Of a DNA stretch of 12,111 nt, positions 9,047-9,779 are shown one piece after another. A program made the position numbers and the translations under genes. Location: UHGV virus genome UHGV-0179104; one strand, 5' to 3'. The notes beneath the pieces were generated by a model that searched no databases, had not been told where the DNA came from, and was given only the letters and a program-made list of their open reading frames with translations. Each line of letters begins with the position of its first letter. The stretch's first letter is position 1. The stretch comes from a virus.

Positions 9047-9232
9047 TTATTTTTTATGCCTGTAACCCCATTCTTCCAGCAACCTTGCGGCGTACCACCC
9101 AAGAAACAAAGGAAAGAACATTACAATGAGATATTCCCCGCCACGGTCAATGTTCGAAATTGACCAGATTACGATGTAACCAGTGTAGGACAGGAATATT
9201 ACAAACCCCAAAAAGCTACTTCGTCGACTCAT
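9047..9232 (-). CDS. Small hypothetical membrane protein (about 61 aa, two predicted TM segments)
   Basis: ATG at 9230-9232 two nt after the upstream gene's TGA, AAGGAG Shine-Dalgarno upstream. Product MSRRSSFLGFVIFLSYTGYIVIWSI...LIVMFFPLFLGWYAARLL...RHKK. The track start 9238 is a GTG. Confidence 0.5.
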   Translation of the reverse strand: MSRRSSFLGFVIFLSYTGYIVIWSISNIDRGGEYLIVMFFPLFLGWYAARLLEEWGYRHKK

Positions 9233-9234
9233 GC

Positions 9235-9555
9235 TCACTCCTTCACTTTGATTCCAGCAGCGCGGATGTTTTCCTCATAAGCATCCATTGCATCACCGAA
9301 GCCATTGGAATAATCAACAGTAAACCCTTTGGCTAATGCTTCTCTGCTGTCGATAAACTTTGGCGCGGTTATTTCAATAGCTGATCGCGATGCCTGCCAC
9401 GTTTGCCAGTGGCCTTGAACATCGTCCATCACGTATTGACCACCAATATTACCGCTGCCAATTTCATGGTGATTTTCAGGGTAACGGATAAGGTCTGAGG
9501 ATTCGCCTCCACGTCGCAACCAACTTTCTTCAAACTTCTTTCTTGATTCGTCCAT
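9235..9555 (-). CDS. Hypothetical soluble protein (106 aa), nin-region accessory gene
   Basis: ATG start with GAGGGT Shine-Dalgarno; acidic, non-hydrophobic product; translationally coupled to flanking small genes. No family recognised. Confidence 0.55.
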   Translation of the reverse strand: MDESRKKFEESWLRRGGESSDLIRYPENHHEIGSGNIGGQYVMDDVQGHWQTWQASRSAIEITAPKFIDSREALAKGFTVDYSNGFGDAMDAYEENIRAAGIKVKE

Positions 9556-9572
9556 CGATACTTACCCTCAGT

Positions 9573-9779
9573 TCAACTCACAAAACGCCACGCCATTTTT
9601 GCTACAGCGACAGGCGCAACACCGATAATCACCCACAGGAGAATGCTACCGAAAATCACACCCGCCAGGTCTTTACCTTCGCCTACCAACCGGACAAAAC
9701 TGCTGGCAACCACAATGAACGTCGCCACCATCCACATGGCACCGAGAATCCTCAATGCAGAAAAAATCAACTCAACCAC
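9573..9779 (-). CDS. Small hypothetical membrane protein (68 aa, two predicted TM segments)
   Basis: GTG start at 9777-9779 with GGGGAGAG Shine-Dalgarno about 6 nt upstream, immediately after the tR2-like terminator. Product has two hydrophobic helices (WMVATFIVVASSFV and VIFGSILLWVIIGVAPVAVA). Confidence 0.5.
   Translation of the reverse strand: MVELIFSALRILGAMWMVATFIVVASSFVRLVGEGKDLAGVIFGSILLWVIIGVAPVAVAKMAWRFVS

What the first reader, a model, noticed from the sequence alone, without database searches (positions are those of the whole stretch)
9047..9779. Three-gene accessory cluster between ren and ninB: two small 2-TM membrane proteins flanking a 106-aa acidic protein
In lambda, ninB follows ren directly and ninC/ninD follow ninB. 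Here three tightly coupled small genes sit between the tR2-like terminator and ninB, and ninB is followed directly by ninE. Small two-helix membrane proteins in phage early regions are often superinfection-exclusion, toxin-like or lysis-timing factors. None of the three is recognisable to me.
Basis: partly seen in the sequence, partly recalled or inferred. Interest (0 to 1): 0.55.

Follow-up and report, generated by a model that had tools for sequence, protein, structure and literature searches.

The report
Swappable small genes in prophage nin region
The three small genes between ren and ninB are real, but they are three separately swappable accessory genes of unknown function from the well-known mosaic "nin" region of lambda-like phages, not a dedicated three-gene system, so the finding is largely ordinary.

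Summary
On the minus strand, between a tR2-type terminator (9826..9803) and ninB (9035..8625), lie a 68-aa two-helix membrane protein (A, 9779..9573), a 106-aa acidic soluble protein (B, 9555..9235) and a 61-aa two-helix membrane protein (C, best start ATG 9232, ends 9047). All have Shine-Dalgarno sites and are tightly packed.

The "three-gene cluster" reading does not hold. In 222 related phage loci the genes occur independently. A is followed directly by ninB in 27 of 77 loci. B is present in about half. C is rare, follows different upstream genes, and also occurs without A.

A matches phrog_1165. B matches phrog_343, and its close homologues carry Pfam PF26207. Both are catalogued families of unknown function (HK022_58 and HK022_59, Sf6 gene 48). 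C is in no library searched and is usually unannotated.

No promoter-like site was found. Expression should therefore depend on N-mediated readthrough from pR, during lytic growth.

Function is unknown. My best guess, about 30%, is a non-essential role in phage-host or phage-phage conflict. Interest is low.

The parts
9803..9826 (-). tR2-type intrinsic terminator: an 8-bp G+C-rich stem followed by TTTTTATTT running to about 9793
   Evidence: Found by the terminator scan and by the RNA fold. The same hairpin is annotated tR2 in HK620 and as a rho-independent terminator in mEp235.
9772..9855 (-). NinA ORF, 27 aa with one hydrophobic helix. Its ATG overlaps the ren stop (ATGA), its body is encoded across the terminator hairpin, and its stop overlaps gene A's start.
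   Evidence: The translation is identical to the annotated NinA of HK630. It matches phrog_5907 at 1.3e-18. ninA is annotated at this position in HK620 and SPN9CC. Whether it is translated is unknown.
9573..9779 (-). Gene A: 68-aa, very hydrophobic two-helix membrane protein with predicted N-in/C-in topology. It is the first gene after the terminator.
   Evidence: Matches phrog_1165 at 1.1e-35 over its full length. There are 197 homologue clusters, nearly all of the 120 listed being 68 aa. The GTG start is present in 79 of 79 loci with a conserved SD, and pN/pS is 0.43. Subfamilies at about 53% and 42% identity keep the length and position. Found in 528 of 5426 complete E. coli genomes. Equivalent to HK022_58 and mEp235_046.
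9235..9555 (-). Gene B: 106-aa acidic soluble protein of the phrog_343 / Pfam PF26207 family (named 'phiTE_015 family protein' in a RefSeq annotation). It has a conserved N-terminal helix, a central WQASRxAIEI motif and a C-terminal AGIKVKE, with two variable segments between them.
   Evidence: Matches phrog_343 at 2e-29. PF26207 is precomputed on homologues. An exhaustive profile search found 747 representatives, all small among the 150 listed. The AlphaFold2 model has pLDDT 74.8 with residues 28-43 disordered. No annotated fold match. Segment reassortment is shown. Equivalent to Sf6 gene 48, HK022_59 and mEp235_047.
9047..9232 (-). Gene C: 61-aa two-helix membrane protein with a basic N-terminus (MSRRSS) and a charged C-tail. 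The alternative GTG start is at 9238.
   Evidence: AAGGAG lies 5 nt before the ATG, conserved in 6 of 6 loci. The ORF is open over its full length in 62 of 62 viral loci. AlphaFold2 gives a helical hairpin. No Pfam, PHROG, NCBIfam or PADLOC hit. Only 3 protein clusters, 4 phage records and 195 of 5426 E. coli genomes. Not annotated in the best-matching RefSeq genome.
8625..9035 (-). ninB (Orf recombination mediator), the downstream boundary of the variable interval. Its SD overlaps C's stop codon.
   Evidence: Matches PF05772 at 2.1e-53 and phrog_72.
9852..10142 (-). ren, the upstream boundary and last gene of the replication module
   Evidence: Matches phrog_142 'Ren-like exclusion protein' at 5e-42. 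Annotated 'protein ren' in RefSeq.

Best explanation
The interval is a recombination-prone slot at the start of the nin region of an E. coli lambdoid prophage. It holds three independently exchangeable, non-essential cassettes, plus NinA. All are transcribed only as part of the pR early-right operon, once N lets RNA polymerase read through the tR2-type terminator. They are translated in a tightly packed series.

Shown:
- The gene anatomy.
- The independence of the three genes.
- Their membership of uncharacterised families.
- Conserved junction sequences that double as ribosome-binding sites. B's C-terminal codons for K-V-K-E contain the AAGGAG used by whichever gene follows.
- Free reassortment of two variable segments inside B.

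Inferred:
- A and C insert into the inner membrane as N-in/C-in helical hairpins during the delayed-early phase of lytic growth.
- B stays in the cytoplasm.

My committed functional guess, at about 30%, is that all three act in phage-host or phage-phage conflict. A and C would act on envelope or membrane processes, for example blocking entry of a second phage's DNA or blunting membrane-acting abortive-infection systems. This would parallel the neighbouring anti-Rex gene ren. B would be a polymorphic binding protein whose swappable segments follow a variable target.

The confidence figure below is for the structural and evolutionary explanation, not for the functional guess.
For: Anatomy and signals.

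Independence of the genes:
- A is followed by ninB after an 8-bp gap in 27 of 77 A-selected loci; about 41 have B and 6 have C.
- In C-selected loci, C follows B in 52 and a 71-aa phrog_1785 protein in 10. A is absent in about 21 of 62, and the order is C then B in 9.
- In B-selected loci, the upstream neighbour is an A-family gene in about 45 of 80 and a non-membrane protein in the rest.
- Alternative third-slot cassettes exist: an 84-aa relative of HK022_60, and proteins of 62, 56 and 52 aa, several sharing the MSMS start created by the common junction.

B is combinatorial: among 102 distinct proteins, the four main N-segment types each pair with several C-segment types.

A is carried by phages with different replication modules (lambda P plus ren, or a DnaB-type helicase) and different virion types (Lederbergvirus, Hendrixvirinae, Lambdavirus, Stx phages). 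This points to a host-directed role rather than a module-specific one.

No sigma-70-like promoter was found on either strand of 8300..10300, against 2.3 expected by chance. One terminator lies upstream.

Literature: nin genes are non-essential, drawn from a pool of 30-50 genes of which each phage carries about 10, and packed with ATGA overlaps (PMC5630979, PMC8022706).

The published H-19B sequence has A and B disrupted.
Against: There is no experimental or homology-based evidence for any function. Every library and fold search returned only uncharacterised proteins.

The promoter scan is a simple consensus test and cannot exclude weak or non-sigma-70 promoters.

A 2-TM gene lies immediately before B in more than half of the B-selected loci: the A family, or an unrelated-looking 60-aa ORF in some loci. 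This leaves room for an A-B functional link.

Selection on C is not demonstrable: 12 distinct nonsynonymous against 5 synonymous changes.

pN/pS for A is only moderately low, at 0.43.
Confidence: 0.7

Rival explanations
1. One reading: A, B and C form one functional three-gene unit, for example a membrane complex of two hairpin proteins with a soluble partner, acting together as an exclusion, toxin or lysis-timing device.
For: The genes are tightly packed with translational coupling. All three occur together in 4 sequenced phages (phiv205-1, vB_EcoP-611R6, HZ41, Gally) and in a set of E. coli prophages. B often has a small 2-TM gene next to it.
Against: Each gene occurs without the others. A occurs alone before ninB in 27 of 77 loci. 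C occurs without A in about 21 of 62 loci, and after a non-B gene in 10 of 62. B occurs without A in about 35 of 80. Tight packing is generic for nin regions (PMC8022706).
Confidence: 0.06
2. A and/or C are holin-like or antiholin-like proteins that tune the timing of lysis.
For: Both are 61-68 aa with two predicted transmembrane helices, N-in/C-in topology and a charged C-tail. From general knowledge, this resembles class II holins and pinholins.
Against: No holin family matched at E up to 1 in the local Pfam copy or E up to 0.1 in PHROGs. The genes are in the early operon, about 5 kb from the prophage's own complete lysis cassette of class II holin, RrrD lysozyme and lysis protein. A occurs in lambdoid phages of several different genera, which as far as I know carry different holin types; holin type was not checked here.
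Confidence: 0.1
3. A and/or C are expressed from the prophage and protect the lysogen, as superinfection exclusion or lysogenic conversion in the manner of P22 SieA, T4 Imm or HK97 gp15.
For: They are small inner-membrane proteins, as several known exclusion proteins are. The neighbour ren is classed as an exclusion-related gene.
Against: There is no promoter-like site. The genes lie directly behind an intrinsic terminator, on the same strand as the repressed early operon. The SDs are embedded in upstream coding sequence, which fits operon expression. There was no PADLOC hit.
Confidence: 0.1
4. Gene C is not a functional gene: it is a chance open frame in a recently acquired 190-bp insert.
For: There are only 3 protein clusters and no family match. 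It is not annotated by PGAP in the best-matching genome. Substitutions show no excess of synonymous changes, 12 nonsynonymous against 5 synonymous. All copies are at least 93% identical and confined to Escherichia prophages.
Against: The ORF is open over its full length in 62 of 62 loci and 16 alleles. A strong AAGGAG lies at ideal spacing and the frame fills the insert exactly. Charge distribution follows the positive-inside rule and the model is a helical hairpin. It stays intact in two different upstream contexts.
Confidence: 0.15
5. B is a DNA-mimic anti-restriction or anti-defence protein of the Ocr/ArdA kind.
For: It is acidic (net charge about -6, pI 5.04), small and early-expressed, with hypervariable segments suggesting an arms race.
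Confidence: 0.08

Closest known systems
The mosaic nin-region gene pool of lambdoid phages (Juhala et al. 2000 and Casjens et al. 2004, as summarised in PMC5630979; see also PMC8022706)
   Same: The position is the same: between the replication genes and Q in the pR operon, behind tR2. The genes are small, tightly packed and use overlapping stop and start codons. They are present or absent among close relatives and non-essential. Cassette boundaries are conserved.
   Different: Lambda itself has none of A, B or C; there ninB follows ren and tR2 directly. A and C are membrane proteins, whereas the characterised nin products (NinB/Orf, NinG/Rap, RusA, the NinI phosphatase) are soluble, nucleic-acid-related or signalling proteins.
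HK022_58 and HK022_59, mEp235_046 and mEp235_047, Sf6 gene 48, Stx2-converting phage 86 orf70 (all annotated as hypothetical proteins)
   Same: They are direct homologues in the same position. A is 88% identical to HK022_58. B belongs to the same phrog_343 family as HK022_59 and Sf6 gene 48.
   Different: None of these phages carries C; HK022 has an unrelated 84-aa gene in the third slot. The B variant here pairs the SWLRR N-segment with the TAPKF C-segment, one of many combinations.
Class II holins and pinholins (for example S21)
   Same: Similar size (61-68 aa), two predicted transmembrane helices, N-in/C-in topology and a charged C-terminus.
   Different: No sequence-family match. The location is the early operon rather than the lysis cassette, and the prophage has its own class II holin elsewhere.
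Small membrane superinfection-exclusion proteins (T4 Imm, P22 SieA, HK97 gp15)
   Same: They are phage-encoded inner-membrane proteins. This is a plausible mode of action for A or C.
   Different: No homology. SieA and gp15 are expressed from the prophage, whereas A and C lie behind a terminator with no detectable promoter. They could only resemble T4 Imm, which acts during lytic infection.

Membership tests
Lambdoid nin-region accessory gene pool | Located between the replication genes and Q, on the pR strand, downstream of tR2 | tested here: met
   The order O, P, ren, terminator, A, B, C, ninB, ninE ... NinG, phosphatase, antiterminator all lies on the minus strand.
Lambdoid nin-region accessory gene pool | Tight packing with overlapping or near-abutting stop and start codons | tested here: met
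   Gaps are 17, 2 and 11 nt. ATGA overlaps occur at ren/NinA and ninB/ninE.
Lambdoid nin-region accessory gene pool | Dispensable: present or absent among closely related phages | tested here: met
   A is followed directly by ninB in 27 of 77 loci. C is present in 6 of 80 A-selected loci. HK630, HK75 and mEpX1 carry A only. The H-19B record has A and B disrupted.
phrog_1165 (gene A) | Full-length match to the family profile | tested here: met
   E = 1.1e-35, residues 1-68 aligned to profile positions 1-68 of 68.
phrog_343 / Pfam PF26207 ('phiTE_015 family', gene B) | Match to the family profile | tested here: met
   phrog_343 at E = 2e-29, and all 64 diverse relatives also hit phrog_343. PF26207 is precomputed on homologues up to 97% identical. 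The local Pfam copy gave no hit for gene B or for four homologues that carry PF26207, so I take it to lack that model; the Pfam assignment is therefore by proxy.
Class II holin / pinholin | Two transmembrane helices with N-in/C-in topology in a protein of about 65-95 aa | tested here: met
   Shown by hydropathy and charge distribution and by the AlphaFold2 hairpin for C. The topology is predicted only.
Class II holin / pinholin | Sequence membership of a holin family | tested here: not met
   No Pfam family at E up to 1 and no holin PHROG.
Class II holin / pinholin | Encoded in the late lysis cassette next to the endolysin | tested here: not met
   The lysis cassette (holin, RrrD lysozyme, lysis protein) is at window position about 200-1400, roughly 8 kb away and after the antiterminator gene.
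Prophage-expressed superinfection exclusion (SieA / gp15 type) | Expressed in the lysogen from its own promoter | tested here: inconclusive
   No sigma-70-like site in 8300..10300 on either strand, and the genes lie behind a terminator. The consensus scan cannot prove absence, and no expression data were available.
Prophage-expressed superinfection exclusion (SieA / gp15 type) | Blocks infection by other phages | not testable with these tools
   This needs plating assays.
Type I toxin (Hok / TisB-like small hydrophobic toxin) | Small hydrophobic peptide paired with an antisense RNA and its own promoter | tested here: not met
   The hydrophobic peptide criterion is met. However, no promoter was found on either strand and there was no Rfam family in the window.
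DNA-mimic anti-restriction proteins (Ocr / ArdA), considered for gene B | Highly acidic surface and a DNA-mimic fold | tested here: not met
   pI is 5.04. No sequence or fold match to solved structures.

The most novel reading that the evidence does not exclude
B may be a scaffold protein built for rapid diversification. A conserved two-helix, two-strand core carries two freely reassorting variable segments; 102 distinct proteins were found in this sample. Small 2-TM proteins repeatedly lie beside it: the A family, a 60-aa ORF that is only 28% identical to A in a single gapped alignment, and C. Together these could mark a membrane-linked, polymorphic counter-defence or exclusion module whose specificity is set by B's swappable segments. 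That would be a previously unrecognised class of arms-race locus at the start of the nin region.
Probability: 0.1. Interest if true: 0.6.

Novelty: new member of a known kind. Interest (0 to 1): 0.2.

Why it matters
As it stands, this matters little. It is one more instance of the long-described mosaic nin region, made of hypothetical genes already present in HK022, mEp235, Sf6 and many Stx phages.

Three points have modest value:
- Gene A is common. It is in about 10% of complete E. coli genomes and in many Stx2a-converting phages. It is always the first gene after tR2, has never been studied, and is unannotated in classic records such as HK620.
- Gene C and a 60-aa alternative membrane ORF are missing from PHROGs, and C is usually missing from genome annotation.
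- Gene B shows unusually clean two-segment reassortment. That would make it a good test case for whether such intragenic mosaicism marks host-interaction proteins.

If A, B or C turned out to control exclusion or counter-defence in Stx phages, it would bear on how these phages compete and spread.

Tried and rejected
Family and structure searches that found nothing informative:
- A, B and C had no hit in the local Pfam copy, NCBIfam or PADLOC. NCBIfam scans of B variants gave only noise.
- The PDB sequence search with B gave only noise.
- The exhaustive profile search with B found 747 small relatives. There was no multidomain fusion among the 150 listed that could hint at function. All sampled relatives are phrog_343, unknown function.
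- A and C are not paralogues (BLASTP E = 6).
- Rfam found no RNA family in the window.

Literature searches that found nothing: PF26207, phiTE_015, peptide strings of A, B and C, and combinations of nin region, transmembrane and exclusion. None returned a functional study of these genes. They supplied only general background on nin regions.

Ideas considered and rejected: a holin; a type I toxin; a DNA mimic; a prophage-expressed exclusion protein; and conservation of A for DNA- or RNA-level reasons. The last was rejected because the length stays at 68 aa down to 42% identity and the start codon and SD are conserved.

The genome-contig scan for C returned a single hit, on a contig labelled as a Bacillota MAG. 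I take this to be a mis-binned coliphage contig.
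Full report
**What the window is.** The 12.1-kb window matches lambdoid prophages in complete E. coli genomes at 99-100% identity. The best match is strain 13E0767. The early-right operon runs on the minus strand in this order: cII, O (11736..10837), P (10840..10139), ren (10142..9852), the interval in question, ninB (9035..8625), ninE (8628..8446), then further nin genes, an antiterminator and a lysis cassette.

- Gene A (9779..9573) encodes 68 aa from a GTG. Its SD, GGGGGAGAG, follows directly on the T-tract of an intrinsic terminator at 9826..9803. That hairpin is annotated tR2 in HK620 and as a rho-independent terminator in mEp235. 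A is very hydrophobic, with two long hydrophobic segments and basic residues at both ends.
- Gene B (9555..9235) encodes 106 aa, with pI 5.04 and no hydrophobic segment.
- Gene C was listed from GTG 9238 as 63 aa. The ATG at 9232 lies 5 nt after AAGGAG and is the likelier start, giving 61 aa. C has two hydrophobic segments, a basic N-terminus and a charged C-tail. AlphaFold2 predicts helices 3-26 and 34-59.
- The gaps between genes are 17, 2 and 11 nt.

It starts on the ren stop codon (ATGA), is encoded across the terminator hairpin and ends inside A's start.

**What the genes are related to.**

- A matches phrog_1165 over its full length, E = 1.1e-35. It has 197 homologue clusters; nearly all of the 120 listed are 68 aa, and none has a name. 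It occurs in 107 phage records. These include many Stx2a-converting phages, HK022 (HK022_58), mEp235 (mEp235_046), HK75, HK629, HK630, mEpX1 and Kapi1. Diverged subfamilies at about 53% identity (HK620, H-19B, mEp213) and about 42% identity (Salmonella P22-like phages) keep the length, and HK620 and SPN9CC keep the position after NinA and tR2. The classic HK620 record leaves it unannotated. It is found in 528 of 5426 complete E. coli genomes.
- B matches phrog_343, and its close homologues carry a precomputed Pfam PF26207. RefSeq names one variant 'phiTE_015 family protein'. Sf6 gene 48, HK022_59 and mEp235_047 are members. An exhaustive profile search found 747 representatives, and the 150 listed are all small proteins. 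All 64 sampled belong to phrog_343, function unknown.
- The AlphaFold2 model of B has mean pLDDT 74.8. It shows a conserved pair of helices, two short strands and a disordered stretch at 28-43. It has no meaningful match among solved structures and matches only uncharacterised viral proteins.
- C has no match in the local Pfam copy, PHROGs, NCBIfam or PADLOC. It has only three protein clusters and occurs in four phage records and 195 of 5426 E. coli genomes. All copies are at least 93% identical. Among species-representative genomes, the only hit is a contig labelled as a Bacillota MAG, which I take to be mis-binned. PGAP does not annotate C in the best-matching genome.

**Is it a three-gene cluster?** No. 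I fetched 80 viral loci selected for A, 62 selected for C and 80 selected for B, and mapped the neighbours.

- *A-selected loci.* A always sits right after the replication module, whether that is lambda P plus ren or a DnaB-type helicase, and before ninB. In 27 of 77 loci ninB follows after 8 bp. About 41 loci have a B-family gene and only 6 have C.
- *C-selected loci.* C follows B in 52 loci and an unrelated 71-aa protein (phrog_1785) in 10. In 9 loci the order is C first and B later. A is absent from about 21 loci.
- *B-selected loci.* The upstream gene is an A-family member in about 45 of 80 and a non-membrane protein otherwise. The downstream gene is C in 24 and ninB in about 35.
- *Other cassettes.* The third slot can instead hold an 84-aa relative of HK022_60, or proteins of 62, 56 or 52 aa. 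Several of these start with MSMS because they share the junction AAGGAGTGAGCATGAGT. B's terminal codons (K-V-K-E, stop) therefore supply the ribosome-binding site for whichever gene comes next.
- *Mosaicism inside B.* Among 102 distinct B proteins, the main N-segment types (SWLRR, YVAKK, WFENY, WFKNK) each combine with several C-segment types (TAPKF, DIDWP, ELQKP, ECPGK). They are joined at the conserved WQASRxAIEI motif.

This is the pattern long described for nin regions. The literature describes a pool of 30-50 small, non-essential genes of which each phage carries about ten. They are tightly packed with ATGA overlaps and were assembled by recombination at gene boundaries (PMC5630979; PMC8022706). 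The published H-19B sequence has both A and B interrupted. This fits dispensability, although errors in that old record cannot be excluded.

**Are they real genes?**

- *A.* The GTG start is present in 79 of 79 loci with a conserved SD. Length is fixed at 68 aa down to 42% identity, and pN/pS is 0.43. I regard it as real.
- *B.* It belongs to a large family with invariant residues F8, W53, S56 and R57. It is real.
- *C.* The frame is open over its full length in 62 of 62 loci and 16 alleles, and it has a strong SD, fills its insert exactly and obeys the positive-inside rule. Against this, its few substitutions show no synonymous excess (12 nonsynonymous, 5 synonymous) and it is very young and narrowly distributed. 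I put about 85% on it being expressed as a protein.

**How it most likely works.**

- *Shown.* The genes lie behind an intrinsic terminator, on the strand of the early-right operon. No sigma-70-like promoter was found on either strand of 8300..10300, where 2.3 would be expected by chance. No known RNA family was found in the window.
- *Inferred.* They are made only when N-modified polymerase reads through tR2, that is, in the delayed-early phase of lytic growth. They are translated in series. A and C then insert into the inner membrane as N-in/C-in hairpins, and B stays in the cytoplasm.
- *Reasoning towards a role.* A is carried by phages with different replication modules and virion types. 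Whatever it does is therefore probably aimed at the host or at competitors, not at a particular phage module.
- *Committed guess, about 30%.* The cassettes serve phage-host or phage-phage conflict. A and C would act at the membrane, either blocking entry of a second genome during infection in the manner of T4 Imm, or blunting membrane-acting abortive infection. The adjacent gene ren falls in the PHROG family annotated 'Ren-like exclusion protein', and from general knowledge lambda Ren protects the phage against Rex exclusion. B would be a binding protein whose swappable segments follow a variable target.
- *Rivals.* Lysis-timing or holin-like function, about 10%. Prophage-expressed exclusion, about 10%. 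B as a DNA mimic, about 8%. A true three-gene unit, about 6%. For C alone, a non-functional ORF, about 15%. None of these has direct support, and the evidence against each is given in the rival entries.

**Comparison with what is known, and novelty.**

- The closest known things are the homologous hypothetical genes of HK022, mEp235, Sf6 and Stx phages, and the nin-region gene pool in general.
- A and C resemble class II holins only in size and predicted topology. They fail the sequence-family and location criteria.
- They resemble small exclusion proteins only in being membrane proteins.
- I class the finding as a new member of a known kind.
- The modestly new points are three. C, and a 60-aa alternative membrane ORF seen in loci L092 and L111, are uncatalogued in PHROGs. 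A is common, always the first gene after tR2, and unstudied. B shows clean two-segment reassortment.

**Verdict.** They are not a cluster, and no evidence supports the proposed roles. Interest is 0.2. The most novel reading still open is a membrane-linked polymorphic conflict module built around B. I give it about 10% probability, and it would merit about 0.6 interest if true.

Noticed in passing
window 9772..9855, minus strand: A 27-aa NinA ORF with one hydrophobic helix, identical to HK630 NinA. It is encoded across the tR2-type terminator hairpin, starts on the ren stop codon (ATGA) and ends inside gene A's start. NinA, the terminator and gene A appear together behind both kinds of replication module (lambda P plus ren here and in H-19B; DnaB-type helicase in HK620, HK630 and SPN9CC).
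   Followed up: partly
window 6170..7942, plus strand (AT-rich block about 5800..8400): A 590-aa ORF on the opposite strand sits between ninE and an HNH endonuclease gene. The surrounding block has 30-37% GC, against 44-50% for the nin genes. The ORF matches phrog_9230 (unknown function) over its full length but has no Pfam, PADLOC or PDB sequence match. It looks like an inserted moron and is a candidate for a lysogen-expressed defence or conversion gene.
   Followed up: partly
L092 1980..2162; L111, L096, L139 and L143 2746..2928: A 60-aa very hydrophobic ORF with two or three predicted membrane helices (MVNAFICSLFLVAIFHGF...) lies immediately upstream of a B-family gene in loci that lack gene A. 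It has no PHROG match and is only 28% identical to A in a single gapped alignment. The slot before B is thus filled by a small membrane protein of a second, barely related kind.
   Followed up: partly
B-family proteins in loci L007-L228: The B family is combinatorial. There are at least four common N-segment types and four or more C-segment types, reassorted around the conserved WQASRxAIEI motif. Some variants carry an optional N-terminal extension: a CxxC...CxC zinc-ribbon-like segment, or an MRWAIKHKSGRTLFV... domain.
   Followed up: partly
L231 (H-19B, AF034975.3) 1195..1774: In the published H-19B sequence the gene A homologue contains a stop, leaving only a 37-aa C-terminal ORF. The B homologue is reduced to an 81-aa ORF from an internal start. 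These are either pseudogenes in a viable phage or errors in an old record.
   Followed up: no
L229 (HK620, AF335538.1) 895..1101: The reference HK620 record annotates ninA and tR2 but leaves the 68-aa gene A homologue unannotated, in the 207-bp stretch before ninB.
   Followed up: yes
L232 (JAEZIN010000021.1): The only species-representative genome with gene C is a 10.4-kb contig of a MAG labelled 'Bacillota bacterium', at 98% identity to the E. coli prophage gene. It is probably a mis-binned coliphage contig.
   Followed up: no
L003 (HK022) 1603..1857: HK022_60, an 84-aa alternative occupant of the third slot, gives a borderline Pfam match to FlbD (PF06289): 25.5 bits against a cut-off of 24.7.
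   Followed up: no
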